DNA from: Patescibacteria group bacterium
GTDB taxonomy: Bacteria; Patescibacteriota; Minisyncoccia; Phycocordibacterales; UBA918
Assembly (NCBI GenBank): GCA_019752815.1
Contig: JAIELQ010000014.1
Coordinates: forward strand, 1,035 to 65,034
Direction: 5' to 3'
DNA: 64,000 bases
This document shows, in pieces, positions 10,221 through 27,222 of the stretch; positions within the stretch are counted from its first letter, which is position 1, and each line of letters begins with the position of its first letter. A program made the position numbers and the translations under genes. The notes under the pieces were generated by a model that saw only the letters and a program-made list of their open reading frames with translations, was not told where the DNA came from and did no database searches.

Positions 10221-10251
10221 CAAATCTGACACTACATCCGTTATATCCTGT

Positions 10252-10944
10252 ATGACCTCACAATCTCAATCTGATACACCTAAAATTCCAAAAATTATCC
10301 ACTACATCTGGGTGGGCGGTAAACCGTTGTCGCCCTTGGCCGAGCAGTGTTTAGCGAGCTGGAAAAAATATTTACCTGAGTACGAACTACGATTGTGGAA
10401 CGAACTCAACAGCCCGATGGCTCATCCCTATGTGGCTGAAATGTATGATCAAAAAAAATGGGCGTTTGTGTCCGACTATATTCGTTTTTGGGCCCTTAAA
10501 AATGAGGGAGGAATTTACCTCGATACCGATATGGAAATCCTCAAACCCCTGACTTCACTGATTGAGACTGTGAGCGGGGAAGGGTTTGTAGGTACCAGTC
10601 GTAGCGGGCAAATTGAATCAAGTATCATTGGAGCTGTAGCCGGGGCTTCATTTGTGAACGAGGCACTCAAATTTTACGAGACTACCCTCGTTTACTCTAC
10701 CAAAGAAACTTCGCCATTGGTACTTAGCCGAGCTATCAATGTAAACCCTGCTAACGTAACTATTTTTCCCGCCACCCATTTTTTTCCCTGCGAAGAAGGT
10801 GAGTACTGCGGACCAAAGAAACTACAAGGAGCCTACGGCCGCCACCACTGGGCCGAATCCTGGGTACCGTATGCCCGAACGAGAAAGGTGCTACGCCGGG
10901 TTGGCGTTATGGGGTTGCTTAAAAAAATAAAGAATCTATTTTAG
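10252..10944 (+). CDS. glycosyltransferase, GT32-like (DXD sugar-binding region)
   Basis: IPKIIHYIWVGGKPLSP...YELRLWNE...DYIRFWALKNEGGIYLDTDME matches the Gly_transf_sug/OCH1-like signature. The track ORF starts at GTG 10192, overlapping the upstream gene; first ATG at 10252. Confidence 0.6.
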   Translation: MTSQSQSDTPKIPKIIHYIWVGGKPLSPLAEQCLASWKKYLPEYELRLWNELNSPMAHPYVAEMYDQKKWAFVSDYIRFWALKNEGGIYLDTDMEILKPLTSLIETVSGEGFVGTSRSGQIESSIIGAVAGASFVNEALKFYETTLVYSTKETSPLVLSRAINVNPANVTIFPATHFFPCEEGEYCGPKKLQGAYGRHHWAESWVPYARTRKVLRRVGVMGLLKKIKNLF

Positions 10945-11997: not shown

Positions 11998-12027
11998 TTG
12001 GCTCTATGAGCCTGGTATATCTATGAT
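11998..12027 (+). promoter_or_regulatory. candidate sigma70-type promoter
   Basis: TTGGCT (11998-12003), 18-nt spacer, TATGAT (12022-12027), immediately upstream of the ATGs at 12028 and 12040. Implies a leaderless or very short leader mRNA. Confidence 0.35.
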
Positions 12028-12039
12028 ATGCTAAACATC

Positions 12040-12984
12040 ATGAGTAGCATCTGTATCACCGGTATAGGAGGATATTTGGGCCTAGCAACGGCCTTTAGAT
12101 TGGTGTCAGAGGGATATTCGGTCGTAGGAATCGGCAGTAATGAACAAGCTGCCGAAAACCTGCCACCGGGGGTAGTCTATGCCGGAATTGATATTCGTGA
12201 TCCAGAAGCTCTGGCACAGTTTTTCACTGCTCATCAGGTGACCACGGTCTATCATTTTGCCGCCATTAAATATGTAGGCCAGTGTGAAGCAGATCCGGTA
12301 CTGTGTTATGACATAAACACTAACGGAACAAAAGCGGTGTTGGCAGCAATGAAAACTGCAGCCGTACCGAAAATTATCTACGCCTCAACTTATGCCGTCT
12401 ACGATTGGTCCGGAGACACTATTACGCTCACGGAAAAATCGAGCACCAACCCAGCTACGGTGTATGGCAAATCAAAATTACAAAGCGAACAAATGATTGC
12501 TGAGGCACATACAGCGGGAGAAATTTCCCGGTACCATATTCTCCGGTATGGAAACATTGTAGGGGCGGTACCAGAATTACCTACCCACACTCCACAAAGT
12601 TTTCTCGATAAGATGCTCGTTGCCACAAAAACTGGCGAGACTATCTCACTTACTGGTGGCGATTACACAACTGTCGACGGCACAGTCGCGCGAGATTTTA
12701 TTGATATACGAGATGCGGCTGCCGCCAATGTTCAGGTGCTGTCTCATCCCGAATCAGGAATCTATAACGTCTCCTCATATAGGGCGACAACACTGAAACA
12801 GCTTATGCAGTTGTGCGAGACAGTAACTGGCACAAAAATTTCTGTAACGATTAATCCAAAAATAGGGAATGAACCGTCTTCAATTACTATAGACAATACG
12901 CAACTTATAACGACGTTAGGATTTCAACCGAAGTATTCTCTCATTGAAACTATAGAAGCACTCGCACAAAAGCTAACGAGCTAA
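12040..12984 (+). CDS. NAD-dependent epimerase/dehydratase family protein
   Basis: ICITGIGGYLGLATAFRL Rossmann motif, YxxxK region (YGKSKLQSE). Alternative start at ATG 12028. The 3' end overlaps the convergent gene by 12 nt. Confidence 0.65.
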   Translation: MSSICITGIGGYLGLATAFRLVSEGYSVVGIGSNEQAAENLPPGVVYAGIDIRDPEALAQFFTAHQVTTVYHFAAIKYVGQCEADPVLCYDINTNGTKAVLAAMKTAAVPKIIYASTYAVYDWSGDTITLTEKSSTNPATVYGKSKLQSEQMIAEAHTAGEISRYHILRYGNIVGAVPELPTHTPQSFLDKMLVATKTGETISLTGGDYTTVDGTVARDFIDIRDAAAANVQVLSHPESGIYNVSSYRATTLKQLMQLCETVTGTKISVTINPKIGNEPSSITIDNTQLITTLGFQPKYSLIETIEALAQKLTS

Positions 12985-13797
12985 GGAGCCAATTTCTTTG
13001 GCTGCTAAATCAAAAAATTGCCCTGTGTCCCAGGCGGTGTAGCCTAATACGGCAAGGTCATACACCATGACTTTAGCGGCTTCAGCTGCGGAAATCATAA
13101 ACAGTACTTCATTCGCTGGTAGATTTTTCTCTGTCACGACAGCTAATCCTTTTTGGGTTAACTCCTCGTATACTTGCCAGGCATCTGAAGACGGCCCCTC
13201 AATTAAAGTGGTGGATTTACCAAGTTTGATATCGGTAAATCGTTCGATATTAGAAGTGATGATTATGATGTGTTTGGTATCGAGGTAATTTTTAATCGCT
13301 GCAAAATCGATGTGAGGATTGTATTTAGGGTGAAATGCAAGGGCGTCACCGTACTGCTTGTCTGTCCGTAAAAATTTTTTAAGGATAACTTTAGCGGCAA
13401 TCCAAATAGGCCATTCATGAGCAATACCTTCATGTATAAATTGCTCATTAGATTTTGTAATGAAGGTGTGCGGAAAACAAAAAAGTGTATTACTGTCTTG
13501 ACCGTCTTTTAAAACCGTCTCAAGTTTTTTAGCAAATGCTCGATTGTAACGAAATTGCCAGTTATTAAAATAAATACTAGAACCAAACAAGTACCCAAAG
13601 GTACCATCACCAATTCGAATAATTGAACGATCTGTTTCTGTGATGGCGGTAATAGTTTGGGCACCAGATAAAAATTTATAGTTCAAATAGTCTTTGCTCT
13701 TGGTATCAGCAATGTGTCTCCAGTATAAATTGGTACGCAAAAATGTCAGTATTAAAATAGGATTATCAAGAAATTTTTTGACACGTTGTCTCCACAT
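12973..13797 (-). CDS. hypothetical protein, possibly a GT-D (DUF1792-like) glycosyltransferase
   Basis: 274 aa, last gene of the - strand glycan operon. IRIGDGTFGY resembles the GDGE-type motif of DUF1792 proteins. Weak support. Confidence 0.3.
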   Translation of the reverse strand: MWRQRVKKFLDNPILILTFLRTNLYWRHIADTKSKDYLNYKFLSGAQTITAITETDRSIIRIGDGTFGYLFGSSIYFNNWQFRYNRAFAKKLETVLKDGQDSNTLFCFPHTFITKSNEQFIHEGIAHEWPIWIAAKVILKKFLRTDKQYGDALAFHPKYNPHIDFAAIKNYLDTKHIIIITSNIERFTDIKLGKSTTLIEGPSSDAWQVYEELTQKGLAVVTEKNLPANEVLFMISAAEAAKVMVYDLAVLGYTAWDTGQFFDLAAKEIGSLAR

Positions 13798-13808
13798 AAC
13801 AAGTAACT

Positions 13809-14630
13809 CTATGACTTTTTTATAAATAAATGATCGTGATGTGAAGTTTTCTCAAGTTTGAAATTATACGCTGAGACTAATTGATTGACATCATCTGGAG
13901 TACTACTTTCAATCATGAGACATGATCCCGGCAACATGTTTGTTAACGTACGCGACATTCCTGCTAGTACCTCTAATTCAAAACCCTCGGTATCAATTTT
14001 TATAAAACTAATTTTTGAGGCTTTATCAATTGAAACCACGTCATCAAATACCCTAACAGGCACCTGCAGAATATTATCGCTTTGAATATCGACAATACGG
14101 CCGCCTCCCTTATGTAACGGGTCGCAGGTAAAAGAAACAGTGCTGGTATTGCTTCCTAAGGCATAGTCATGCACGGTAATTTTTTGCGTTAGATTATTTA
14201 AGGAAATATTCTCTCTAAGAATATGCACTACTTCTGGATTTGGTTCGAAGGCTATGACTTCAGCGTATGAATATCTAGTTGGGGCGATAATTGAATACAA
14301 ACCCCGATTGGCTCCAATATCAACAAATACATCTTGAGTTGTTGGGGTAGTAAGCCAGTCTCGAAGGTGTTCTTCAAAATAATCAGAACAGATAGTAGTA
14401 CTGTCATCAAAAGCTTCGACTGCAAAAATCCCAGTTTTGTTTTTAATAATAAATTTATTTTTGGGAAGGCGTGCCACAAGCATGTGAATGGCCGTATCTA
14501 ACATACTGCTTGTGCGCTGTAACAATGAGAAAAGCTTTGTGAGCCAAAACGTTAAAAAAAATGCTGTACGTGAACCGTCAAGAAGTTCCGTAGCTGAATA
14601 TGATTCCTGCAAAACTGATAATTTATTCAT
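13809..14630 (-). CDS. FkbM-family SAM-dependent methyltransferase
   Basis: VDIGANRGLYS...FEPNPEV...IKIDTEGFELEVLAGM (FkbM domain). Start chosen at MNKLSV, 7 nt downstream of the preceding gene's stop; the track ORF is longer (to 14723). Confidence 0.65.
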   Translation of the reverse strand: MNKLSVLQESYSATELLDGSRTAFFLTFWLTKLFSLLQRTSSMLDTAIHMLVARLPKNKFIIKNKTGIFAVEAFDDSTTICSDYFEEHLRDWLTTPTTQDVFVDIGANRGLYSIIAPTRYSYAEVIAFEPNPEVVHILRENISLNNLTQKITVHDYALGSNTSTVSFTCDPLHKGGGRIVDIQSDNILQVPVRVFDDVVSIDKASKISFIKIDTEGFELEVLAGMSRTLTNMLPGSCLMIESSTPDDVNQLVSAYNFKLEKTSHHDHLFIKKS

Positions 14631-14637
14631 AAATTTT

Positions 14638-15402
14638 TTACTTAATAAAGGCTCGGATGATACGCATTTTAACATACAGCCAAAAAAGTGGAGATAAGTA
14701 CAAATTACGTCCTGATGCCTCACGAATAATCGTGGGAATTAGTCGTAACTGATCACTGGTGGAGCGGGTGCGGAGATTTAGTCCCGTAGCGTCGTAGCCG
14801 CTAGTTAGAGTGGTAACAATTGGTTCGTAATAAAAACGAGTATATGTGCCCAGTTCAGCGTAGAATAACCACTCCTCGGCTTGTTTAATGGTGGTAGGGA
14901 AGCGAAGTTTGTGGGTGTCTTTTGTAAGGAGTGACGCGTTAACGCAGTGAGTGGCATCACCTTTGAACCGTCGAGTGATTAAATAATCCCAAATGTATGA
15001 GTACATTTTTTTACTTTCACCAGTGGTAGTTGGGGTAGATTCGTTAGTGCCCCGGGCAGTTACTATCCAGGGTGATGGAGAAGTAGCAATGAGTGCAGTC
15101 AGTTTCGCGAGGGCTTCTGGCGCAAGTGTGTCATCGTCATCAAGAAAAATCACCCAGACACTCTGGCTCGAAACTTTCTCTAGTCCGCGGTTGCGACTGT
15201 AGTTCACTCCTCGATTTGAATCATTTTCTAAAATATGAATCCGACTATCATAAAAAGCTTTAATAGCTTCGGTTGCCCCATCACCTGGATTGTCATTAAC
15301 AATAATCATCTCCCAGTCAGGTACCGATTGAGCTATGACTGACTGTACCGCTCGCATCAATTCACTAGGTCGTTTATAGGTAGGAGTAATGATGGTAAAC
15401 AT
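14638..15402 (-). CDS. glycosyltransferase family 2
   Basis: MFTIITPTYKRPSEL...VIFLDDDDTL (GT2 DxD). Confidence 0.8.
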   Translation of the reverse strand: MFTIITPTYKRPSELMRAVQSVIAQSVPDWEMIIVNDNPGDGATEAIKAFYDSRIHILENDSNRGVNYSRNRGLEKVSSQSVWVIFLDDDDTLAPEALAKLTALIATSPSPWIVTARGTNESTPTTTGESKKMYSYIWDYLITRRFKGDATHCVNASLLTKDTHKLRFPTTIKQAEEWLFYAELGTYTRFYYEPIVTTLTSGYDATGLNLRTRSTSDQLRLIPTIIREASGRNLYLSPLFWLYVKMRIIRAFIK

Positions 15403-15502
15403 AGAAAGGTGATAGAGGAATAGATTTGCATTTATCGCAGAAGTTATGCAGATTGTAAGTAAAGCTTCTGTGCAAGTTTGGTCATGTCACGTAGGTTATA
15501 TT

Positions 15503-16192
15503 TTACTCTTTGGAAAAGTTCCCTGCACTTTTCTCGCCCCAGATACCCATGTAATAATCCCCCTGATCATGTTTAGTGCCGCCAAAGGTGAGTGTCCATT
15601 CGGGGAATTGAGATTGCCACCAGGCTTTGGATCTGATGTGCCACATGCGTTGATGCCACGGTTTTTTCTCACTCCAACACTCAGAAAATGCTAGTACTGA
15701 TCCAGCGGGTGCGACTGCACAAATAGCCCGGCATATTTTTTCTACCTCTTTATCGCGCAGGTGACTCAGAACGCAGCCGGTGATAAATATTGCTGGTTCA
15801 GTCAGTCTAAGCGTAGGAAGTAACTCCTCAGCAAAGCCTTGGTGCCACGTAATATTCGGGTAGGATTCAGCAGGGTAGGCACGTTTAGAGATATCAATCG
15901 CAGCTGCTGAAGGTTCAAGTGCAATGACGTTTAGACCAAGAGAATGGACTGAAGCTGCTACCCAGCCAGTACCACTGCCAATATCAACAGCGGTTTTTAC
16001 ATTAGGATGTTTAGCGAGTAGGTCGCGAATGCCGAAATCAGGCCAGTTGATACGATCTTCTTGAATGTTCTTGTAGCCAGCATCACGATCTTGTTCGAAT
16101 TTTCCTGGAGCTTCGTATTGCGCATTGTGTCGTTTAAAACTCTCTTCCTGACCTTGAATAAATGTGCTAAGTGCTTTAAGAATTTTTTTCAT
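15503..16192 (-). CDS. class I SAM-dependent methyltransferase
   Basis: VDIGSGTGWVAASV motif I, Methyltransf_11/12-like. Confidence 0.6.
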   Translation of the reverse strand: MKKILKALSTFIQGQEESFKRHNAQYEAPGKFEQDRDAGYKNIQEDRINWPDFGIRDLLAKHPNVKTAVDIGSGTGWVAASVHSLGLNVIALEPSAAAIDISKRAYPAESYPNITWHQGFAEELLPTLRLTEPAIFITGCVLSHLRDKEVEKICRAICAVAPAGSVLAFSECWSEKKPWHQRMWHIRSKAWWQSQFPEWTLTFGGTKHDQGDYYMGIWGEKSAGNFSKE

Positions 16193-16200
16193 AATTATGT

Positions 16201-17907
16201 TTACTTACCCAGCCAAAAACGAACCTGCCGGTAGATTGCTTTGGCTACAATACGAATATTTTGTGTGTAATGTAGCTTATATAATACACGTCTTAGAGGA
16301 TGGGGGAATGGATTTGCTACCACATCGATATAAATTTCCTCAAAGCGTTTAATTTGATTAGTGAGCTCATAGTGATCAGTAAAGCGTTGGCGGGCATTTT
16401 GTGACGTTTCTGTATAGTATGTTGTGTCCTGCCTCAGTTTCGTTAACTCGGCTGCGTACTCATCAATGGTTTTGAGCACCTTACCACCGGTACCAATACA
16501 TTCAATGTGGCCATTATTTATTTCGGATACGTGACTCACAATTGGTAGTCCAAAATACATTCCTTCAGCCATAGCCTGAGAGTTTACTTCACCATCCTTG
16601 CGGCCATGTGCGTACACATTAAGCGTAGATAAGAATTTAAAAATAATTTCTGAATCTCCAGTTGTTGGTAGGAACGTAATATTTTTTATGCCAAGTTCCA
16701 ACGCTTGTTTTTGGTAGAGGGTACTTCCTCCGAGCATAATGAACCAGGTATTCTCATTTTCAATTTTTTTGTAGGCTGCTAATGGAAAGGGGGAGAAAAT
16801 ACTATCAGAAGCTCGTTGGTGCATACCGTATATAAATTTGTTATCAAGCGATAACTCAGATCGATAGGTACCGTAATCTCGTGTTTCGATATCAATAGGC
16901 AGAGAAATAATCCGAACTCGTTTGCTATCACCACCACTTTTTATCCATTGATCGGCACTCCACTGGCATATGTGCAGTGATCGCGCAATATTGTATTGGT
17001 TATCGCAACCAGCTTTAAGGGCGATAATTTCGAGGATAGGTGTGCGTTTGATTTTTGTGAATGGGTATTCAGGGTGTCCCGGGCGACCAGTCTGAATAAC
17101 GTCGTATTTTGTTTCGTCAAATTTTTCCCAAAAATCTGTACCGTGCCATGTCTGATACGGGTTAACCATATTTACTTCCCCTACGGTAAAGGGAACAAGA
17201 TTAACATTGTGCGCCTTCATGTATGCAAGCCGGAAAGGGTCAGTATCTGGGTAGTTATATGTAATGCCTCGAAACGGGCTGGCATTACAATAATAGTAGT
17301 CCACATCAAAACGGGTTTTGTCTAAATTAGCAGCAATGATCTGCAACATTTTTTCAGTTCCTCCGGCAGACATTCCACCATATTTCACAAACGCGATTTT
17401 AATTTTAGATGGTGTGTACTGGGTAAGTACTTCTTCGGGGTGGTCAGTGCTAATTAAAATAGTTTGCGCCAGCCCAAATTTCCTACCGGCATCAATATCT
17501 GTTTGACTATCACCAATGAGTATTGATCGTGCAGTATCAATAGGATACTTTGCGGCTGCTTGGCGCAATAGCCCGTCATTGGGTTTTCGGCAATCACACG
17601 TTCCATCTAAATGTGGGCAATAGAATACATCAAGAATAGTTATTCCGTGCTCTTTTAATCCAGTAATCATATGATCGTGAATGGCTGTAAGAGATGCTAA
17701 CGTCATTTTTCCACGAGCCACTCCTTGCTGATTTGTAACTACGATAAACTCAAACCCATCACGAGCAAGAGTTTTTAGTACATTAAATATTCCTTGATTA
17801 AAGACAAAATCACTAACAGAGGTTATGTACTCATGTGGGGGAGCATTGACGTTAATTACTCCATCACGGTCCAAAAAAGCAATTTTTTTAACCCTGACGT
17901 TTTTCAT
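16201..17907 (-). CDS. gmhB: bifunctional fusion: D,D-heptose 1,7-bisphosphate phosphatase (GmhB, HAD) plus GT-B (GT4-like) glycosyltransferase
   Basis: N-terminus: FLDRDGVINV, CDCRKPNDGLL and GDSQTDIDAG (GmhB signatures). C-terminus: YAHGRKDGEVNSQAMAEGMYFGLPIVS (GT4 EX7E region). 568 aa. Confidence 0.7.
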   Translation of the reverse strand: MKNVRVKKIAFLDRDGVINVNAPPHEYITSVSDFVFNQGIFNVLKTLARDGFEFIVVTNQQGVARGKMTLASLTAIHDHMITGLKEHGITILDVFYCPHLDGTCDCRKPNDGLLRQAAAKYPIDTARSILIGDSQTDIDAGRKFGLAQTILISTDHPEEVLTQYTPSKIKIAFVKYGGMSAGGTEKMLQIIAANLDKTRFDVDYYYCNASPFRGITYNYPDTDPFRLAYMKAHNVNLVPFTVGEVNMVNPYQTWHGTDFWEKFDETKYDVIQTGRPGHPEYPFTKIKRTPILEIIALKAGCDNQYNIARSLHICQWSADQWIKSGGDSKRVRIISLPIDIETRDYGTYRSELSLDNKFIYGMHQRASDSIFSPFPLAAYKKIENENTWFIMLGGSTLYQKQALELGIKNITFLPTTGDSEIIFKFLSTLNVYAHGRKDGEVNSQAMAEGMYFGLPIVSHVSEINNGHIECIGTGGKVLKTIDEYAAELTKLRQDTTYYTETSQNARQRFTDHYELTNQIKRFEEIYIDVVANPFPHPLRRVLYKLHYTQNIRIVAKAIYRQVRFWLGK

Positions 17908-18499
17908 TGCGGGCTTGTAAGTGATCGAAATAGTCTTGGAAATATTTAGTTAGTAAGTGCAATATTGCATGATGAACACTTTCCACAACAGTGTAATTCC
18001 CCGGTTCAGTTTTAATGACAATTTTCGCGTCAGCGAGTTCATTTAATTTGCCACCATCAAACCCTGATAAGCCAATGACTGGAACGTGACGTGATTTTGC
18101 AAGTTCTACAGCCTTGATAATGTTAGGTGATTTGCCAGAACTGCTAATCGCGATAATGCAGTCAGCTTCTTGGAGGTAGTTCTGAAGCGGTCCGGCAAAC
18201 ACCATATCAAAACCAATATCATTGGCCCAGGCTGACATTTCCTCTTCAGTAGACGGGAGTCTGATGGCTTGGAAACGACGAGTATGGCCTTCGAGGTTAT
18301 GACTAAAAACAGTTTTGTTAAAGTCACTTACCCAGTGTGTAGCAATCGCGAGTGAGCCTCCGTTACCAAAAATGTAAATTCTGCCATCACGTTCATACAC
18401 CGATTGAAGTATGTGTGTAGCTTTGGCAATTTCGTCAGCTGGAGCGTTTTTGAGGTGGACACAAACATCCTCCATAAAGTCTTCGATAAATTTATGCAT
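17888..18499 (-). CDS. gmhA: phosphoheptose isomerase (SIS domain)
   Basis: GRIYIFGNGGSLAIATHWVSDF...AISSSGKSPNII. Start chosen at MHKFIEDF, where ATGCATAA overlaps the hddA stop by 8 nt; the track ORF extends to 18556. Confidence 0.75.
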   Translation of the reverse strand: MHKFIEDFMEDVCVHLKNAPADEIAKATHILQSVYERDGRIYIFGNGGSLAIATHWVSDFNKTVFSHNLEGHTRRFQAIRLPSTEEEMSAWANDIGFDMVFAGPLQNYLQEADCIIAISSSGKSPNIIKAVELAKSRHVPVIGLSGFDGGKLNELADAKIVIKTEPGNYTVVESVHHAILHLLTKYFQDYFDHLQARNEKRQG

Positions 18500-19508
18500 G
18501 GTGTGAAAGTGAGTTAAATAATACATCTGCTCCAGATTGTGAGAAATCAAAATCAATTTTTTTGAATCCTTCCAAACCTAGTTTTGCTGAACGTTCGCGC
18601 AAGCCTGCTCCAATAGCAGCATGTTTTTCCGGTGGGGCAATAAAGAATAAGCAACCACCACCTCCGGCACCAAGCACCTTGCCACCCCAGGCACCTAAGT
18701 TGCGAGCCTCGGTGTACAGTTCGTCGATAGCTCCTGTTGAAATACCACCTGAGAGACTTTTTTTCCGCTCCCAACCTTCATGTAGCATTTCAGCCATACC
18801 CTTCATGTCACCGGCTACTAATTTATCTCGAAATACGAGTACCGAGTCAGACATTTGTTTGTAGGTTTCAAATTTATCGGCCATGGTTAATTTTTGTTCG
18901 CCTAATACCGCACTCGCAGAACGAGTAATGCCAGTAAAAAAGAGTACGACATGATCTTCTAAATCTGCACGTACTTTGTAATCAATAAAAATCGGATCAA
19001 CATCAACAGTTCCGTCAGGATTGAATTGAAATACGTTAAATCCACCGTACGCGGCCGCATATTGGTCTTGTTTACCAATTGGTTCTTTCAGAATATCTAT
19101 TTCAATTTCACACGCAAGCTTAGCTGCTTGTTCTTTACTCACGGGTATTTTATGGTGAGCATTAATGGCTTTAAGGAGAGCAACGGTAAAGCTAGACGAT
19201 GAACCCAATCCTGTATTGCCAGGCAAATCCGCAAACGAAGCAATCTCAAGTCCCGGCTCCACGACGTTTAAGTGCAGCATAGTCTCACGGAATCGTGTAT
19301 GTTTAAATTCCGAAGGATGTTTCGCTTGTTCTGTCTCTAGGTACTTTATGACAAAGGTATCAAGAAGTCGTCCGTAGTTAATAACGGTATACACATGTTT
19401 ATCAATGGTGGATGAAATGACACGTCCAGGGTATTTTTCATAAAAATCCTTGATATCAGTTCCTCCTCCTACAAAACTAATCCTAAGCGGTGCGCGGGTA
19501 ATTATCAT
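18492..19508 (-). CDS. hddA: D-glycero-D-manno-heptose 7-phosphate kinase (GHMP kinase)
   Basis: RAPLRISFVGGGTD N-terminus and GHMP motif LPGNTGLGSSSSFTVAL. Confidence 0.75.
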   Translation of the reverse strand: MIITRAPLRISFVGGGTDIKDFYEKYPGRVISSTIDKHVYTVINYGRLLDTFVIKYLETEQAKHPSEFKHTRFRETMLHLNVVEPGLEIASFADLPGNTGLGSSSSFTVALLKAINAHHKIPVSKEQAAKLACEIEIDILKEPIGKQDQYAAAYGGFNVFQFNPDGTVDVDPIFIDYKVRADLEDHVVLFFTGITRSASAVLGEQKLTMADKFETYKQMSDSVLVFRDKLVAGDMKGMAEMLHEGWERKKSLSGGISTGAIDELYTEARNLGAWGGKVLGAGGGGCLFFIAPPEKHAAIGAGLRERSAKLGLEGFKKIDFDFSQSGADVLFNSLSHHA

Positions 19509-19509
19509 A

Positions 19510-20280
19510 TTATTGTTTATTATTAGTACAAACAGCCACCATAAACCGGGATCGTTCGAGCCAGGCTGGATCGTCTTTCAAAATAATGTCAGACATCTCA
19601 AGTTCTGGTTTAATCCAGTTAATAATTTTAAGCTTGACGGTATTGTTTATTTTGTAGGGAATAATCCACTTAAAGGTAAAAAGTATTGGATTTACAATTC
19701 TCCAAATGAAATGGTCGTTGTAAACCGGAGTACGCTGTCCAAAGAGACTATCAACTATAAAGTACTCATTTAGTGCAGAGCGAAATTCAGGAATCGTCAT
19801 CTCAAATACGTGATGAGGATTAATTGGTTTTTTAGTACCAGGCGAATAGAGTGTTTTATTAGGTGTAGAGAGATACACTTTGCCGTTTGGTTTTAGTACT
19901 CGTTTAATTTCAGACAAAAATTTTCGCCAATCTGTTAGGTGTTCAAATACTTCAAAAGCAACCACTACATCAAATGTGCTATCTGCAAACGGAATATTCA
20001 TGGAATCACCAATTGAGAATTCAATATTTGGTTCTTGCCAATGTGCTTTAGCGTAATCAATAGCTTCAGTAGCCACGTCAACACCATGCACCTTTTTAAA
20101 TTTTTTAGATAATGTGTTACTGCCGTGTCCACTACCGCATCCAATATCAAGTACAACATGTTCCGTGTTGCCGGTGACAAATTCATACCGAATGATGTGC
20201 TCAAGCAAATTGTTTTTAGCTAAGGCGCTTTTACTGTCGAGACGTTCGCCCCCAAAACGGTTTGTATTAGTTGTTGTCAT
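19510..20280 (-). CDS. class I SAM-dependent methyltransferase
   Basis: VLDIGCGSGHGS...FDVVVAFEVFEHL. Confidence 0.7.
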   Translation of the reverse strand: MTTTNTNRFGGERLDSKSALAKNNLLEHIIRYEFVTGNTEHVVLDIGCGSGHGSNTLSKKFKKVHGVDVATEAIDYAKAHWQEPNIEFSIGDSMNIPFADSTFDVVVAFEVFEHLTDWRKFLSEIKRVLKPNGKVYLSTPNKTLYSPGTKKPINPHHVFEMTIPEFRSALNEYFIVDSLFGQRTPVYNDHFIWRIVNPILFTFKWIIPYKINNTVKLKIINWIKPELEMSDIILKDDPAWLERSRFMVAVCTNNKQ

Positions 20281-21022
20281 TGTTTTTAGTTTTAAAATTC
20301 ATTTGTTTGGGCAATGATTGAGCTTTAGTGTAGTTTTCGAGGTTGCCAATGTCAAGCAAAGTCTCGTCCATTTGGTACACCTGCAATACATCACCATTTT
20401 TTAGCAAAAAAGGGAAGACATGATGTCCAAAATCCAGTACATCATGATTAAGTTCGGATATGGTATGGAGAATACTTGGATCTACCACGTAAATGCCAGC
20501 ATTTGCGTAGTTGCTCGTAATTTGGTGAGGTTGTGGTTTTTCTATAAAGTTGCTAATAACAAATTCGTCATTGTGCTCGATGATGCCTTTCTGCTCAGGG
20601 TGGTGTTCATAGTAGCTTGCAATTGTTACTTTGGCATTCGATTGCTTGTGATGGTCAATCAATTTTTGGTAATCGATATCGGTGAGATTGTCACTGTAGA
20701 TTACTAAAAATGGTTCATCATCACCCAGCCATGACTGGTTCGCACGAATCGTGCCAGCGCTCCCTAATAGCTCTGGCTCATATATAGTACTAATCGACAA
20801 TCTCTTTGGTTGCTGTGATAAATATTCCGCCACAAATTCCTCCATTTGTTGAGAGAGGTAATGAGTGTTAATTCGAACTTCTGTGATGCCATGCTGAAAT
20901 AAATGGTCGAGATGATATGCAAGGAGCGGCTTACCGGCAACGGGTACCAACGGCTTAGGAGTAGTTTCTGTTAATGGCCTGAGACGAGTTCCAAGTCCAG
21001 CGGCGAGAATGAAAGCTTTCAT
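20267..21022 (-). CDS. sugar-phosphate nucleotidyltransferase (HddC-like heptose-1-P guanylyltransferase candidate)
   Basis: MKAFILAAGLGTRLRPLTETTPKPLVPVAGKPLL (NTP_transferase signature), located inside the gmhA/hddA/gmhB cluster. Confidence 0.65.
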   Translation of the reverse strand: MKAFILAAGLGTRLRPLTETTPKPLVPVAGKPLLAYHLDHLFQHGITEVRINTHYLSQQMEEFVAEYLSQQPKRLSISTIYEPELLGSAGTIRANQSWLGDDEPFLVIYSDNLTDIDYQKLIDHHKQSNAKVTIASYYEHHPEQKGIIEHNDEFVISNFIEKPQPHQITSNYANAGIYVVDPSILHTISELNHDVLDFGHHVFPFLLKNGDVLQVYQMDETLLDIGNLENYTKAQSLPKQMNFKTKNNDNN

Positions 21023-21024
21023 AG

Positions 21025-22002
21025 TTATCTTTTAAGTGACCTGTAGGCAGTTGCGATGATATCTTCAATATTGGTATATTGTGGTTTCCATGAAAGCTCA
21101 TTCATGGCTCCCGTGGCGTCAGCAATGAGGCGAGACGGGTCGCCAGGACGACGGTCTTTTTCAATATAGGTCAGTTTTGTACCAGTAATTTTTTCTGCCG
21201 TATCAATTAACTCTCTGACAGAGAAGCCTTTGTTAATACCAAGATTGTATTGTGTACATACTAGATCAGTATCTAATTTAGTAAGTGCACAAATATGGGC
21301 TTGGGCTAAATCAACTACATGAATGTAATCGCGAATACCGGTCCCGTCTGGAGTAGGGTAGTCGGTGCCAAATATTGAAAATGTCTCTCTCCGGCCGAGT
21401 ATTGTTTCAAGCATAGAGGGTATAACGTGAGTTTCAGGTGAATGATACTCTCCTAATTCACCATCAGGATCTGCTCCAGCAGCACAAAAATAGCGAAACG
21501 AAATTGAGGAAATGCTATATGCCGTAAAATACTCTTTGAGCATTTCTTCGGTTACTAGTTTTGTGCGGCCGTAGGGATTAGTGGGGTTTTTAGGATGGTC
21601 CTCTAAAATAATCTCACTTTGTGGCTCTCCGTAGACTGAGGCAGAGGATGAGAAAATAATTTTAGTACAGCCACTTACGCGCATTGCTTCGAGAATGTTG
21701 TAGCTACCCATTACATTAGTTTGGTAGTATTTTGCAGGATTCGTAACTGAATCAGGTACGTTAGCGATAGCCGCAAAATGAAACACGGTGTCAGGGGCGA
21801 GTTTTAGAAATAGCCTGGTCAGTTTTTCAGCATCACAAATATCAAGTTCGTGATACTCCACATTTGATCGAGTGAGGATATTGTTTCGTGATTGCGAAAA
21901 GTTATCAATGACATGAATCATGGTATCAGGCTGATCTGCAAGCAGTTTAACTAGGTGCGCACCAATAAAACCTGCTCCTCCCGTGACGATTATTTTTTTC
22001 AT
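21025..22002 (-). CDS. UDP-glucose 4-epimerase-like NAD-dependent epimerase
   Basis: KIIVTGGAGFIGAHL, YGRTKLVTEE (YxxxK). 325 aa. Confidence 0.8.
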   Translation of the reverse strand: MKKIIVTGGAGFIGAHLVKLLADQPDTMIHVIDNFSQSRNNILTRSNVEYHELDICDAEKLTRLFLKLAPDTVFHFAAIANVPDSVTNPAKYYQTNVMGSYNILEAMRVSGCTKIIFSSSASVYGEPQSEIILEDHPKNPTNPYGRTKLVTEEMLKEYFTAYSISSISFRYFCAAGADPDGELGEYHSPETHVIPSMLETILGRRETFSIFGTDYPTPDGTGIRDYIHVVDLAQAHICALTKLDTDLVCTQYNLGINKGFSVRELIDTAEKITGTKLTYIEKDRRPGDPSRLIADATGAMNELSWKPQYTNIEDIIATAYRSLKR

Positions 22003-22973
22003 TTTTTTATTTTTTTGATTAGGTTTTTGATGCCTTTTGGAATGTAACGATTTACAACATAAATTAGTCGTTGATGACGGTGATAATATTTTTGAATCCA
22101 GTTACGCTTATCAGGGATGTCATTTGGCCAAACATAGTCCCAGATATCAAGCCAATACAGGTTGTCAGCTGAGTACGTAGCAATGAATTCGAGGGCCTTA
22201 CTCACATGCCATTGTGAGCTATCGGCTTTGATACTATATGAAGGATAACCGACTAGCCAATTTTTTGGGGTGTCAGCAAGCCTAAGTCCGACCTCATCTT
22301 TATACTCGTAGTATTTGTTGTTTAATATAAACGATTTAAGAAATATGGGTTGCGTATAGTGTCCAAATTCAAGCAGTTTTGCCCAGCGTTGTTTGCGAAG
22401 GATGCGTTCAAAGTCGACAAATTGGTAGTGTAAAACTTTAATGTGAGGAATACTTATAGCTTTAAATACTAAGCTTTCAGGAATAATCGACAAGTGCGCA
22501 AAGCCCGGTTCAAAATTTACTTTACGGTCGTCAATAAACGCAAATGGTCGGTCAAAATCAGTCCATACCGAACCCTTATCATTACGATATTTGTCCTCAC
22601 TTCTCCATAGTTGCACCCACTGAAACGAAAACGCCGTCCCCGGTTCTTTGTCTTTCACCATTTCGTCAAAAACAAGCGGGTCTAATATATTGGCTGAAAA
22701 AATTTCATCAGCAGCTAAGTGGGCAATAAAGTTATAGCCTTCAATTTTTCGAGCCGCATCAAGAAGGATTTGACGTCTATTACCCTCGTCATATGTCTTA
22801 GCCTCGTTCTGGAAGTATGTAACTTTTGGAAACTTTTTATAAATATTAGGTGTATCATCGGTGCTCTTTTCGTCGGCAATAATGATGTGATCAAAAAATA
22901 GACTGGCACACGTTAGTGTGTGTTCAAGAATCCATTCTTCGTTCTTGATAGGGATAATTAATATTTTTTTCAT
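21999..22973 (-). CDS. glycosyltransferase family 2-like (Glyco_tranf_2_4-type)
   Basis: IIPIKNEEWILEHTL...DHIIIADEKSTDDT. 4-nt ATGA overlap with the downstream epimerase. Confidence 0.5.
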   Translation of the reverse strand: MKKILIIPIKNEEWILEHTLTCASLFFDHIIIADEKSTDDTPNIYKKFPKVTYFQNEAKTYDEGNRRQILLDAARKIEGYNFIAHLAADEIFSANILDPLVFDEMVKDKEPGTAFSFQWVQLWRSEDKYRNDKGSVWTDFDRPFAFIDDRKVNFEPGFAHLSIIPESLVFKAISIPHIKVLHYQFVDFERILRKQRWAKLLEFGHYTQPIFLKSFILNNKYYEYKDEVGLRLADTPKNWLVGYPSYSIKADSSQWHVSKALEFIATYSADNLYWLDIWDYVWPNDIPDKRNWIQKYYHRHQRLIYVVNRYIPKGIKNLIKKIKK

Positions 22974-23029
22974 AAAAGAGATGTGAGTTGAAATAATGGC
23001 AATTAATGTAGCGTAATTTTACTATAAAA

Positions 23030-24310
23030 TCAGCTTATTTTCCGAGTGTTCAATTTTTGCCTAATAGAACTATAGAAAAACGGAATAATTGGTGCGACTG
23101 AATAGGATATGACAGTAGCCCAAGCCGCTCCCGCTCCACCATATTCTGGAATCCATAATAGGTTTAAAATAACATTTAAGACCATAGGTAGAAAGCCAAC
23201 CATGATTTGAATGCGGCGTTTGTTTTCGGTAGCTAGTATGTTACTGATTAAAAAACCAGCTACTACACCGAATAATGACCATACATAAATTTGCACTAAT
23301 GGAATACTGGCAGTGAAGGCCTCACCATAGATTATGGGAATCAACATTGGAGCAAGCAACGTAGTTGCGAGTGAGGCAGTGAGACTGTATCCGCCAATGA
23401 GAACGGTCAGTGCAAGTATCCGTTTACCGTAGTTATTGTCTGCCGCATGGGCGTTTACTAAAGCGGGCAAGAGTGATGCTAGTAATATCATTGGGAGGAC
23501 TTGCCAAATTTCAGTTAGCTGGACGGCAACGCTGTAGTAACCAACAGCAGCGGTATCAAGAAAATGTTTCAAGAGCACCTGATCGATGCGTCCACTTATA
23601 ACAATCGACATTGAGATAAACACAAACGGAATAGAATCGAGTGCTAACCTTTTTGCGTAACTGAGATCAACATACCATTCTCGAATTGAAATGCCGGTAT
23701 ATTTTGTATACATATATACTGTAATAGTGGCAGTGAGCATTTGTTCTAAGAGCATAATACCAGCCAGTACTAAAACTCCTTGGTTTTGAGTCATGGCGAT
23801 TATTTTCATAATACTGATAGTGATATGGACAACTAACTGCATGACAGAAAGATACTTCGTGTCTGCTTTGGCGTAAAAAATATTTTGTGCAACAGTAAAT
23901 GATGAGAGAATTTGGGCAAGACATAATAATCCCACCACAAAAAATGTGATGTCATTGTGTGGAAGATAAAATGTGAGACCAAATACACCTACTATCGTCA
24001 CAAGTGTTCCCAGAACCATGAGTACCCAACCTGTACCTAAAATACTTCGTTGGTTTACTTCTTCTCGTACTAAGTCTCGTACTACTACCGTTGCACTCGC
24101 TATCGCACTAAAAAAGGCGAGTAAGTTTACGATACTGACAGCGTAGCTAAGTTCACCTAAATTTTGGGGTCCTAACGTACGGGCAATATAAAAAGTTGCT
24201 GCCAAAGAGACTATGATGCTGAGAAATTTTGAAATTGTTATCCAGAGTGCTCCCTTTAGATAGCGTTTAGGACTTTTTGCACCCAGGGCAGTGAGGAGTT
24301 TGGTTACCAT
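23030..24310 (-). CDS. polysaccharide flippase (Wzx/MOP superfamily), about 12 TM helices
   Basis: 426 aa, fully hydrophobic multi-helix profile. First gene of the - strand operon, which runs on to the GT-D-like gene. TATACT lies 11 nt upstream of the start on the - strand. Confidence 0.65.
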   Translation of the reverse strand: MVTKLLTALGAKSPKRYLKGALWITISKFLSIIVSLAATFYIARTLGPQNLGELSYAVSIVNLLAFFSAIASATVVVRDLVREEVNQRSILGTGWVLMVLGTLVTIVGVFGLTFYLPHNDITFFVVGLLCLAQILSSFTVAQNIFYAKADTKYLSVMQLVVHITISIMKIIAMTQNQGVLVLAGIMLLEQMLTATITVYMYTKYTGISIREWYVDLSYAKRLALDSIPFVFISMSIVISGRIDQVLLKHFLDTAAVGYYSVAVQLTEIWQVLPMILLASLLPALVNAHAADNNYGKRILALTVLIGGYSLTASLATTLLAPMLIPIIYGEAFTASIPLVQIYVWSLFGVVAGFLISNILATENKRRIQIMVGFLPMVLNVILNLLWIPEYGGAGAAWATVISYSVAPIIPFFYSSIRQKLNTRKIS

Positions 24311-26103: not shown

Positions 26104-26150
26104 TTCATTATAAAACGAGTTCCAAACTTATTCTTAAAAATGCGACGCAA

Positions 26151-26178
26151 AAGCGCGACCCCTGGGCCGCGCTTTTTT
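26151..26178 (+). terminator. rho-independent terminator
   Basis: aagcgcg / cgcgctt stem with a 10-nt loop, followed by TTTTTT (26173-26178). Confidence 0.6.
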
Positions 26179-26220
26179 CTATTCGTTTCTTTTTTAGCGC
26201 GAGAGTTGTTGTATGTATAT

Positions 26221-27222
26221 ATGCAACCTCCGAAAAAAAAGATTGTGGTAATAGGCGGCGGTACGGGAACGTATACGTTACTGCGGGGGTTAAAAGCGTA
26301 CGCTCATGCGGTTGATATAACGGCGATTGTGACGATGGCTGATTCGGGTGGTTCAACCGGACGATTGCGGGATGAGTTTGGTGGTTTGCCTATGGGTGAT
26401 GCTCGGATGGCGCTGTGTGCACTGGCTGACGATGTTGATGCCGATGCCGACGTGCTGCGGGAATTATTTTTATATCGATTTGCTAAAGGGGAGGGTCTAT
26501 CCGGACATAATTTTGGAAATTTACTTTTGACGGCCTTGACTGAAATTGTAGGAGATACAAGTACGGCAATTGAAACCGCGGGAAAAATTTTACGAATTAA
26601 AGGGTCAGTGATTCCGGTGACGAGCGACAACGTACAGTTAGTGGCTACCTATACCAATGGTGTCGTAGTGACGGGAGAACATTATATTGATACACCTCCA
26701 GTTGAAATGCATGATTATCGGATTATTAATTTAGCGGTGACCCCCAAGGCTACGATTAATCCCAAAGCGGCGACTGCAATTACCGAGGCGGATATGGTAG
26801 TACTTGGTCCCGGAGATTTGTATACCAGCATTTTGGCGAACTGTGTGGTTGATGGGGTACAAGAGGCGGTGAGTGCAAGCAACGCAACGATGGTGTACGT
26901 GTGTAACTTGATGTCACGCAGTGGGCAAACAATTGGTATGCATAGTAGGGAGTATGTACATGAAATCGCACAATACGCCGGAGTGATGCCGCAGCATGTC
27001 ATTTATAATACAGCACCATTTTCGCCAACACTGCTCGCCTCATATTCACAGGAAGGCAACCATCAGGTTTTAAATAATATGGATTCGGATTTGTGTACCG
27101 TCCATGAGATAGATGTCGTGTCGACGCAGGCGTATGTAACCAAAGCGGGTGATACTGTCACGCGCAGTTTAATTCGGCATGACAGTGAAAAATTATCTCA
27201 GGCAATTATTAACTTATTGTAG
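26221..27222 (+). CDS. yvcK: YvcK/CofD-family gluconeogenesis factor-like protein (UDP-sugar binding)
   Basis: KKKIVVIGGGTGTYTLLRGLK...AIVTMADSGGSTGRLRDEFG (UPF0052 signature). The track ORF starts upstream, inside the terminator; the ATG at 26221 is preferred. Confidence 0.8.
   Translation: MQPPKKKIVVIGGGTGTYTLLRGLKAYAHAVDITAIVTMADSGGSTGRLRDEFGGLPMGDARMALCALADDVDADADVLRELFLYRFAKGEGLSGHNFGNLLLTALTEIVGDTSTAIETAGKILRIKGSVIPVTSDNVQLVATYTNGVVVTGEHYIDTPPVEMHDYRIINLAVTPKATINPKAATAITEADMVVLGPGDLYTSILANCVVDGVQEAVSASNATMVYVCNLMSRSGQTIGMHSREYVHEIAQYAGVMPQHVIYNTAPFSPTLLASYSQEGNHQVLNNMDSDLCTVHEIDVVSTQAYVTKAGDTVTRSLIRHDSEKLSQAIINLL

What the first reader, a model, noticed from the sequence alone, without database searches (positions are those of the whole stretch)
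16201..17907. GmhB heptose-bisphosphate phosphatase fused to a GT-B glycosyltransferase
A single 568-aa ORF carries a complete GmhB HAD domain (DRDGVIN, CDCRKP, GDSxxD) and a C-terminal GT4-like domain with the EX7E region. I am not aware of a pathway phosphatase fused to a transferase having been characterised. The fusion could channel the heptose intermediate or dock the pathway at the membrane assembly site. The predicted start overlaps the gmhA 3' end by 20 nt.
Basis: partly seen in the sequence, partly recalled or inferred. Interest (0 to 1): 0.55.

Follow-up and report, generated by a model that had tools for sequence, protein, structure and literature searches.

The report
GmhB phosphatase fused to glycosyltransferase
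A real single gene in a Patescibacteria surface-sugar cluster joins a heptose-pathway phosphatase to a glycosyltransferase, but close relatives keep the two as separate neighbouring genes, so it is an uncharacterised yet fairly ordinary gene fusion.

Summary
Window 16201-17907 (minus strand) is one uninterrupted 568-aa ORF whose start overlaps the gmhA-like ORF by 20 nt. Residues 1-165 are a GmhB-type HAD-IIIA phosphatase with every catalytic and Zn-loop residue. Residues 168-530 fold as a GT4-like retaining GT-B glycosyltransferase with an invariant EX7E. A cationic amphipathic tail follows.

The fusion is not an artefact. Thirty cluster representatives from independent assemblies (50-83% identity) carry it, all with intact catalytic residues in both halves.

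It is confined to one clade of Patescibacteria. In relatives with the same gene order, gmhB and the GT are separate adjacent genes: TAA followed by ATG, ATGA overlaps, or a 7-nt insertion in an 80%-identical relative. So the fusion arose by merging two translationally coupled neighbours and is reversible.

Channelling is unlikely. GmhB (step 3) and the transferase (step 5) are separated by the nucleotidyltransferase step.

The GT family also occurs in clusters with no heptose genes within 10 kb. Its more constant neighbours are a GT2-like protein and a methyltransferase, so a heptosyltransferase role is plausible (about 0.45) but unproven.

Phosphatase-GT fusions are already characterised (for example TPS-TPP). 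This architecture is new but modest: interest 0.27.

The parts
16201..17907 (-). Whole fused ORF, 568 aa plus stop (GmhB-type HAD, then linker, then GT4-like GT-B, then amphipathic tail)
   Evidence: identical to NCBI protein P0001 'HAD-IIIA family hydrolase [Patescibacteria group bacterium]'
17413..17907 (-). GmhB-type HAD-IIIA phosphatase domain, aa 1-165
   Evidence: NCBIfam PRK08942 2e-43, TIGR01656 and TIGR01662 above cut-off; PDB GmhB 4pnh/3l8e/2gmw E 1e-25; Foldseek 3l8h/3l8e target-normalised TM 0.74-0.76, 33-34% identity
17851..17871 (-). HAD motif I DRDGVIN (nucleophile D13, acid/base D15)
   Evidence: Aligned to E. coli GmhB DRDGTIN; D13 and D15 conserved in 30/30 fused homologues
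17581..17619 (-). Zn-loop and motif III: C97-P-H99 ... C104-D-C106-R107-K108-P
   Evidence: Aligned to CPH...CDCRKP of E. coli and Burkholderia GmhB; all ligands conserved 30/30
17497..17514 (-). HAD motif IV GDSQTD (D133, D137)
   Evidence: D133 30/30; D137 is D or E
17407..17442 (-). Inter-domain linker (HPEEVLTQYTPS, aa 156-167); the place where relatives carry a stop/start, an ATGA overlap or a 7-nt insertion
16318..17406 (-). GT4-like GT-B glycosyltransferase domain, aa 168-530
   Evidence: AF2 pLDDT 87; Foldseek HepE 4xsu E 8e-15, also MshA, BshA, WaaG; homologues carry PF00534/PF13692; stand-alone homologues of about 406 aa start exactly at K168
16564..16590 (-). EX7E motif (E440 VNSQAMA E448)
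   Evidence: Invariant in alignment A1 and in 31/31 long homologues
16204..16317 (-). C-terminal basic amphipathic tail, aa 531-568 (NPFPHPLRR...RIVAKAIYRQVRFWLGK)
   Evidence: Highest helical hydrophobic moment in the protein (0.64), 8 K/R and no D/E, no transmembrane segment; conserved in stand-alone GT homologues
17888..18556 (-). gmhA-like sedoheptulose-7-P isomerase (SIS); its 3' end overlaps the fusion start by 20 nt
18492..19508 (-). HddA-like GHMP heptose-7-P kinase
   Evidence: NCBIfam HddA model 1.4e-52, below cut-off; Pfam GHMP kinase
19510..20280 (-). SAM methyltransferase embedded in the heptose operon, 64-91% conserved in relatives
20267..21022 (-). HddC-like sugar-1-P nucleotidyltransferase (the step between GmhB and any transferase)
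21999..22973 (-). GT2-like (Glyco_tranf_2_4) protein; its homologue is the most constant neighbour of this GT family
15503..16192 (-). Methyltransferase immediately downstream; its homologue lies 13-156 bp from the GT in 13 of the loci held

Best explanation
This is a genuine bifunctional gene made by in-frame merging of two adjacent, translationally coupled genes of a surface-glycan cluster.

The N-terminal GmhB-type HAD-IIIA phosphatase removes the 7-phosphate from D-glycero-D-manno-heptose 1,7-bisphosphate. That substrate is made by the neighbouring GmhA isomerase and HddA-type GHMP kinase. The resulting heptose 1-phosphate is released and activated by the separate HddC-like nucleotidyltransferase.

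The C-terminal divergent GT4-like retaining GT-B transferase then works on the same glycan at the membrane surface, held there by its cationic amphipathic tail. It is either the heptosyltransferase (my estimate 0.45) or a conserved backbone transferase that works with the GT2-like and methyltransferase neighbours.

The fusion gives fixed 1:1 expression and brings the phosphatase to the membrane. It does not channel substrate and is not essential, because close relatives run the same pathway with split genes.

Shown: the architecture, intact catalytic residues, the folds, conservation, and the split/fused polymorphism. Inferred: substrates, membrane binding, and any benefit of the fusion.
For: - Continuous ORF with a 20-nt overlap onto gmhA.
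- GmhB-type domain with all catalytic and Zn residues.
- GT4-like fold and EX7E.
- 30 fused cluster representatives at 50-83% per-domain identity, with catalytic residues of both halves conserved.
- The operon encodes GmhA, an HddA-like kinase and an HddC-like transferase.
- Relatives with the same synteny have separate gmhB and GT genes: L008 TAA then ATG in the same frame; ATGA overlaps in L009, L012 and L029; a short overlap in another frame in L023; L051-L053, 80% identical, with a 7-nt insertion, in three assemblies.
- In a neighbour-joining (NJ) tree of the GT domain, all gmhB-adjacent GTs form one clade, with split L051 nested among fused members. A neighbouring clade in the same tree has a divergent heptose operon 2-4 kb away.
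- Amphipathic tail of charge +8.
Against: - No enzymology exists.
- The GmhB equivalog models score below their curated cut-offs.
- The window protein itself does not reach Pfam GT thresholds, and there is no sequence-level PDB match for the GT half.
- Stand-alone GT homologues at 49-56% identity lie in clusters with no heptose genes within 10 kb (L003/L016, L010, L017, L019, L020, L022, L024, L030, L031). This weakens the heptosyltransferase reading.
- An HddC homologue is absent from the held flanks of two relatives with the same gene order, L001 (fused) and L023 (split).
- No inter-domain confidence (PAE) was available to judge whether the two domains contact each other.
Confidence: 0.7

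Rival explanations
1. Metabolic channelling or metabolon: the fusion exists to hand the heptose intermediate directly from phosphatase to transferase.
For: The two activities belong to one operon and one glycan. The fusion is kept across 30 cluster representatives.
Against: The two steps are not consecutive; HddC-like activation lies between them and is a separate protein. The fusion is lost in an 80%-identical relative and absent in sister lineages with the same operon.
Confidence: 0.08
2. Non-canonical order of reactions. Either the GT domain consumes the GmhB product heptose 1-phosphate directly, as a phosphorylase-like donor or as an acceptor like the GT4 enzyme GlgM. Or the HAD domain removes the 7-phosphate after transfer, as in synthase/phosphatase fusions such as TPS-TPP.
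For: Under this reading the fused domains would catalyse consecutive steps. GlgM, a GT4 acting on a sugar 1-phosphate, is among the fold matches. The HddC homologue is missing from the L001 and L023 clusters, and none was recognisable on L001's 756-kb contig (the last is weak evidence). Characterised HAD-GT fusions work on consecutive steps (PMC3634074).
Against: The window and most relatives encode a complete canonical GmhA/HddA/GmhB/HddC set. Split relatives have an ordinary stand-alone GmhB. GlgM is only rank 15 among generic GT4 matches. The GT family also occurs without any heptose genes nearby.
Confidence: 0.05
3. Sequencing or assembly artefact: two genes wrongly joined by a missed stop or frameshift.
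For: Split versions differ from fused ones by as little as one stop codon or a 7-nt indel. Reads could not be inspected.
Against: 30 full-length fused cluster representatives come from NCBI, ENA, JGI and Logan assemblies, diverged to about 50% identity, all in frame with a variable-length linker.
Confidence: 0.02
4. The HAD domain is not a heptose phosphatase but another HAD-IIIA enzyme (histidinol-phosphatase-like or similar) recruited to the glycan cluster.
For: Scores are below the curated cut-offs of all three GmhB models. The generic TIGR01656 'histidinol-ppas' domain model is the one passed.
Against: The best hits by sequence and structure are GmhB. The GmhB-type Zn loop CPH..CxC is present. 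It lies directly next to gmhA and an HddA-like kinase in every relative.
Confidence: 0.05

Closest known systems
GmhB, D-glycero-D-manno-heptose-1,7-bisphosphate 7-phosphatase (HAD-IIIA; E. coli 2gmw/3l8e, B. bronchiseptica 3l8h, 4pnh)
   Same: Capless HAD-IIIA fold, DxDx(T/V) motif, TNQ, CRKP lysine, GDxxxD, and the CPH...CxC Zn loop. It lies next to gmhA and a heptose kinase.
   Different: It is about 33% identical to solved GmhBs and falls below the NCBIfam equivalog cut-offs. It is covalently joined to a 400-aa glycosyltransferase. It sits in an HddA/HddC-type (GDP-alpha-heptose) context, not the HldE/ADP-heptose LPS context.
GT4-family retaining GT-B glycosyltransferases (Anabaena HepE 4xsu, MshA 3c48, BshA, WaaG, PimA-type)
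   Same: Two-Rossmann GT-B fold (target-normalised TM about 0.65-0.74). EX7E in the C-terminal domain, with a conserved Arg 75 residues upstream.
   Different: Only 11-17% identity. There is no sequence-level PDB hit, and the window protein is below Pfam thresholds. The canonical Lys shortly after the Arg is not evident. It has an extra basic amphipathic C-terminal tail. Donor and acceptor are unknown.
Bifunctional synthase/phosphatase fusions (TPS-TPP such as Thermoproteus tenax TPSP, PMC3634074; SPS with SPP-like domain; GgpPS; mannosyl-3-phosphoglycerate synthase/phosphatase)
   Same: One polypeptide combining a GT-B glycosyltransferase with a HAD phosphatase of the same pathway.
   Different: In those fusions the phosphatase acts on the phosphorylated product of the transferase (consecutive steps), is a capped HAD, and is usually C-terminal. 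Here the HAD is N-terminal, of capless IIIA type, and acts two steps upstream of the transferase.
Other multi-domain heptose-pathway enzymes (HldE kinase/adenylyltransferase; HddC-GmhB and GmhA-GmhB fusions seen here as P0226/P0237 and P0265)
   Same: Fusion of neighbouring genes of the nucleotide-heptose pathway.
   Different: Those fusions join two precursor-synthesis enzymes. This one joins a precursor enzyme to a glycan-assembly enzyme.

Membership tests
GmhB / HAD-IIIA heptose-bisphosphate phosphatase | HAD core motifs I-IV (DxDx[TV]; T/S; K; [GS]DxxxD) | tested here: met
   D13/D15, T58, K108 and D133/D137 align to E. coli GmhB and are conserved in 30/30 fused homologues.
GmhB / HAD-IIIA heptose-bisphosphate phosphatase | GmhB/HisB-type Zn-binding loop CxH...CxC | tested here: met
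   C97, H99, C104 and C106 are aligned to the CPH...CDC of 3l8e/4pnh and are invariant. Metal binding itself was not tested.
GmhB / HAD-IIIA heptose-bisphosphate phosphatase | Score above the curated family cut-off | tested here: not met
   PRK08942 147.9 vs 178; TIGR00213 119.5 vs 149.6; NF050049 119.4 vs 250. The broader TIGR01656 and TIGR01662 models are passed.
GmhB / HAD-IIIA heptose-bisphosphate phosphatase | Fold of solved GmhB | tested here: met
   Foldseek 3l8h, 3l8e and 2gmw at E 3e-10 to 5e-9, target-normalised TM 0.73-0.76.
GmhB / HAD-IIIA heptose-bisphosphate phosphatase | Genomic association with gmhA plus a heptose kinase and nucleotidyltransferase | tested here: met
   The window operon; the same block in L001, L005-L008, L012, L023, L029 and L051.
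GmhB / HAD-IIIA heptose-bisphosphate phosphatase | Hydrolysis of heptose 1,7-bisphosphate at C7; anomer preference | not testable with these tools
   Needs an enzyme assay.
GT4-like retaining GT-B glycosyltransferase (Pfam Glycos_transf_1) | GT-B two-Rossmann fold | tested here: met
   AF2 pLDDT 87; HepE, MshA, BshA and WaaG matches at E 8e-15 to 3e-9.
GT4-like retaining GT-B glycosyltransferase (Pfam Glycos_transf_1) | EX7E motif | tested here: met
   E440 and E448 are invariant.
GT4-like retaining GT-B glycosyltransferase (Pfam Glycos_transf_1) | Pfam PF00534/PF13439 gathering score | tested here: not met
   The window protein has only Glyco_transf_4 at 20.5 bits vs 28.5, and no PF00534 hit. 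Many homologues have precomputed PF00534/PF13692 hits.
GT4-like retaining GT-B glycosyltransferase (Pfam Glycos_transf_1) | Glycosyl transfer with retention; identity of donor | not testable with these tools
   Context gives only partial support for heptose.
Synthase/phosphatase bifunctional enzymes (TPS-TPP type) | Phosphatase dephosphorylates the product of the fused transferase (consecutive steps) | tested here: inconclusive
   Pathway logic from the operon places GmhB upstream of nucleotide activation. Split relatives have an ordinary GmhB. There is no biochemical test.
Synthase/phosphatase bifunctional enzymes (TPS-TPP type) | GT20/GT4 synthase homology and a TPP/SPP-type capped HAD | tested here: not met
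   The HAD is of IIIA GmhB type. GT fold matches are generic GT4, with sucrose-phosphate synthase only at rank 12 and 46.

The most novel reading that the evidence does not exclude
The fusion may mark a non-canonical heptose route in which the two fused domains do catalyse consecutive steps. In one version, the GT4-like domain uses the GmhB product heptose 1-phosphate directly, as donor or as acceptor, bypassing or preceding nucleotide activation. In the other, the HAD domain removes the 7-phosphate only after a heptose-7-phosphate residue has been transferred. The apparent lack of an HddC homologue in the L001 and L023 clusters is the only hint.
Probability: 0.05. Interest if true: 0.7.

Novelty: new variant of a known kind. 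Interest (0 to 1): 0.27.

Why it matters
The fusion gives a Rosetta-stone style link between the GDP-heptose pathway and a large, uncharacterised GT4-like family. That family is abundant in Patescibacteria glycan clusters and has no sequence-level match among solved structures. Public annotation of the exact protein names only the phosphatase half.

The link nominates a candidate heptosyltransferase, or heptose-glycan transferase, for organisms whose surface glycans are essentially unknown.

It also offers a clean natural experiment in gene fusion and fission. The fused and split states differ by a stop codon, a 1-nt frame change or a 7-nt indel.

It does not reveal a new kind of enzyme or mechanism.

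Tried and rejected
- **Assembly or frameshift artefact.** Rejected on conservation across 30 cluster representatives.
- **Is GmhB-GT fusion a recurrent theme?** The 50%-identity representative library holds only one representative with this architecture (P0022). The one GmhB+GT2 fusion found (P0224) is a singleton; all its relatives are stand-alone GT2 proteins. Recurrence is rejected.
- **Is the GT always tied to heptose genes?** No. About half of the homologues at 48% identity or more have none within 10 kb.
- **Whole-contig presence of HddC, inferred by matching contig lengths between searches**. Suggestive for L001 but unreliable, because L008's known HddC was not recognisable in the list either.
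- **afdb50 fold search.** The library was unavailable.
- **Literature searches for a GmhB-glycosyltransferase fusion or heptose in Patescibacteria.** Nothing relevant beyond a note that Paceibacteria encode heptose synthesis.
- **Sequence search of the PDB with the profile.** No hit for the GT half.
- **Donor specificity from fold matches.** Not inferable; the top hits use UDP-Glc, UDP-GlcNAc or GDP sugars alike.
Full report
**1. Observation**

The ORF reported at 16201-17907 is real. It lies on the minus strand, starts with ATG and encodes 568 aa without interruption. The quoted motifs are all present: DRDGVIN (aa 13-19), CDCRKP (aa 104-109), GDSQTD (aa 132-137) and E440-x7-E448. The exact protein is in NCBI as 'HAD-IIIA family hydrolase [Patescibacteria group bacterium]' (P0001). 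So the source is a candidate-phyla-radiation bacterium, and that name covers only the phosphatase half; other sources label fused relatives as heptose 1,7-bisphosphate phosphatase.

**2. The two halves**

*N-terminal half (aa 7-165).*
- It matches GmhB models best: PRK08942 at 2e-43, TIGR00213 at 1e-34, and the alpha-specific NF050049 at 1e-34. All three fall below their curated cut-offs.
- It passes the broader HAD-IIIA models TIGR01656 and TIGR01662.
- Against solved structures it hits only GmhB and the related HisB-N domain: 4pnh, 3l8e and 2gmw at about 1e-25.
- The nucleophile and acid/base Asp pair, TNQ, the CPH...CDCRKP zinc loop and GDxxxD all align residue for residue.

*C-terminal half.*
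- It is weakly recognised on this sequence: Pfam Glyco_transf_4 at 20.5 bits, below cut-off.
- It has no sequence-level PDB match.
- An AlphaFold2 model built on alignment A1 is confident (mean pLDDT 87, pTM 0.74).
- Foldseek places residues about 168-530 among retaining GT4 GT-B enzymes: HepE 4xsu at E 8e-15 with target-normalised TM 0.67-0.73, then MshA, BshA, WaaG and others. The N-terminal part matches GmhB structures at TM 0.73-0.76 and 33-34% identity.

*C-terminal tail.* The last 38 residues form a basic amphipathic tail. It has the highest helical hydrophobic moment in the protein (0.64), eight K/R and no D/E, and no transmembrane segment. This fits a peripheral membrane anchor, but that is an inference.

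**3. The fusion is real and conserved**

The protein search returned 30 full-length fused cluster representatives (559-583 aa), including the query. Identity to the query is 50-79% in the HAD half and 51-83% in the GT half. They come from NCBI, ENA, JGI and Logan assemblies. All 30 keep D13, D15, T/S58, K108, D133, the four Zn ligands, R365, H434, R436, E440 and E448. Both halves are therefore under purifying selection, which rules out a one-off frameshift or assembly artefact.

The architecture is narrow. In the library of 1.84 billion 50%-identity representatives, only one representative (P0022) has it. Genome loci with the fusion are labelled Kaiserbacteria, Taylorbacteria and 'Saccharibacteria'/Patescibacteria.

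**4. How the fusion arose**

Hundreds of stand-alone homologues of the GT half (about 406 aa, 53-62% identity) begin exactly at K168, in the motif KKIRIAFVKYGG.

Relatives share the gene order GalE-like, HddC, methyltransferase, HddA, GmhA, GmhB, GT, methyltransferase. In many of them gmhB and the GT are separate but abutting genes:

| Locus | Junction between gmhB and the GT |
|---|---|
| L008 | TAA directly followed by ATG, in the same frame |
| L009, L012, L029 | ATGA-type stop/start overlaps, in different frames |
| L023 | short overlap, in another frame |
| L051-L053 (P0017) | 32-nt overlap; GT half 80% identical to the window |

P0017 is found in three independent assemblies. Its overlap is created by a 7-nt insertion (CTATGAA) relative to the fused sequences.

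In a rough neighbour-joining (NJ) tree of the GT domain, all gmhB-adjacent GTs, fused or split, form one clade. The split L051 is nested among fused members.

The simplest history is that two translationally coupled neighbours merged by loss of the stop or a frame change, with at least one later fission. The fusion is therefore tolerated, and perhaps mildly useful, but not required.

**5. Context and likely function**

The window operon encodes a complete GDP-D-glycero-alpha-D-manno-heptose-type pathway:
- GmhA (17888-18556)
- a GHMP kinase closest to HddA (18492-19508)
- the GmhB domain
- an HddC/ManC-like nucleotidyltransferase (20267-21022)

It sits in a larger glycan cluster containing:
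- a Wzx flippase (23030-24310)
- a GalE-like epimerase (21025-22002)
- four methyltransferases
- GT2, GT-D, GT2_4-like and further glycosyltransferases

GmhB is step 3 and any Leloir transferase is step 5, with the separate HddC enzyme between them. Direct channelling between the fused domains therefore does not follow from the pathway. Fixed stoichiometry, and tethering of the phosphatase to the membrane-associated transferase, are the most the fusion is likely to provide.

**6. Is the GT a heptosyltransferase?**

*For.*
- The gmhB-adjacent clade, and a neighbouring clade in the same tree (L011, L013, L014, L018, L026), are each linked to heptose genes.
- The heptose genes of that neighbouring clade are a strongly divergent set (GmhB 31-38%, HddA 40-45% identity to the window's; GmhB and HddA were each found in four of its five loci). 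This suggests more than inherited synteny.
- Several further stand-alone GTs appear to share a contig with an HddC orthologue: P0034, P0060, P0068 and P0080, judged by matching contig lengths.

*Against.*
- Homologues at 49-56% identity have no heptose genes within 10 kb: L003/L016, L010, L017, L019, L020, L022, L024, L030 and L031.
- The most constant neighbours of the family are a homologue of the GT2_4-like protein (21999-22973) and of the methyltransferase (15503-16192). This also holds outside Patescibacteria.
- The GT family is fusion-prone in general. Many representatives are 570-940 aa, with C-terminal methyltransferase, FkbM, GT2 or second GT4 domains.

I put the heptosyltransferase reading at about 0.45. 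The alternative is a conserved backbone transferase that merely sits next to gmhB.

**7. Comparison with what is known**

- Each half belongs to a known superfamily. The membership table gives the features tested; note that both halves fail the strict curated score cut-offs.
- Fusions of a GT-B transferase with a HAD phosphatase are well characterised. An example is the Thermoproteus tenax TPS-TPP (PMC3634074). SPS/SPP-like, GgpPS and MpgS/MpgP fusions are established knowledge.
- Those fusions join consecutive steps, use capped HAD types and usually have the opposite domain order. This protein is not a member of that group.
- GmhB itself is also found fused to HddC (P0226, P0237) and to GmhA (P0265).
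- A GmhB+GT2 fusion (P0224) is a singleton.
- I found no paper describing a GmhB-GT4 fusion.

**8. Unresolved**

- An HddC homologue is missing from the held flanks of L001 (fused) and L023 (split).
- None was recognisable on L001's 756-kb contig. That test is weak, because L008's known HddC was not recognisable either.
- This leaves a small opening (about 0.05) for a non-canonical route in which the fused domains act consecutively.

**9. Verdict**

This is a new domain architecture combining two known enzyme kinds. It is restricted to one Patescibacteria clade, evolutionarily labile and uncharacterised. Its main use is as a functional link for an abundant unannotated GT family. Interest is 0.27.

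Noticed in passing
window 21999-22973 (-) and 15503-16192 (-); loci L010-L040: A GT2_4-like protein and a small methyltransferase accompany this GT family far more consistently than heptose genes do. They are often within 10-200 bp, and the pairing extends beyond Patescibacteria (loci labelled Anaerolineales and Sumerlaeota). This suggests a conserved three-gene glycan module of unknown product.
   Followed up: partly
proteins P0121-P0136 and P0084: The same GT family is very often the N-terminal part of 570-940 aa proteins that carry methyltransferase (Methyltransf_24, FkbM), GT2 or second GT4 domains. It is a generally fusion-prone module.
   Followed up: partly
L001 1-17713; L023 1-11518: Two relatives with the same gene order (L001 fused, L023 split) lack the HddC-like nucleotidyltransferase that sits between the GalE-like gene and the methyltransferase in the window. 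L001 instead has a carbamoyltransferase gene next to the fusion.
   Followed up: partly
window 19510-20280 (-): A SAM methyltransferase is embedded between HddC and HddA and is 64-91% conserved in all relatives with this operon. This hints at a methylated heptose.
   Followed up: no
proteins P0224, P0226, P0237, P0265: GmhB-like domains about 50% identical to this one also occur fused to a GT2 (a singleton), to HddC-like nucleotidyltransferases and to a GmhA/SIS domain.
   Followed up: partly
window 12001-24000: The glycan cluster has lower G+C (0.40-0.42) than the flanks (0.45-0.49), as is usual for mosaic surface-polysaccharide loci.
   Followed up: no
window 40832-49876 (+) and 50699-60247 (+): There are two giant ORFs of 3014 and 3182 aa. 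The first has LVIVD repeats and a beta-propeller signal. The second has no Pfam match at all.
   Followed up: partly
window 8091-10220 (+) and 10192-10944 (+): A VirD4/TraD-like coupling ATPase is followed by a small glycosyltransferase with a TcdA/TcdB-type DXD sugar-binding region, just upstream of the glycan cluster.
   Followed up: no
window 29992-32208 (+); 26140-27222 (+): There is a Wzy_C (O-antigen ligase/polymerase-like) protein with C-terminal TPR repeats, and a CofD-family protein, downstream of the cluster.
   Followed up: no
L016 and L017 record titles: Contigs carrying typical Patescibacteria-type glycan clusters are labelled 'uncultured Gammaproteobacteria' in their records. Automated taxonomic labels of these MAGs look unreliable.
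   Followed up: no
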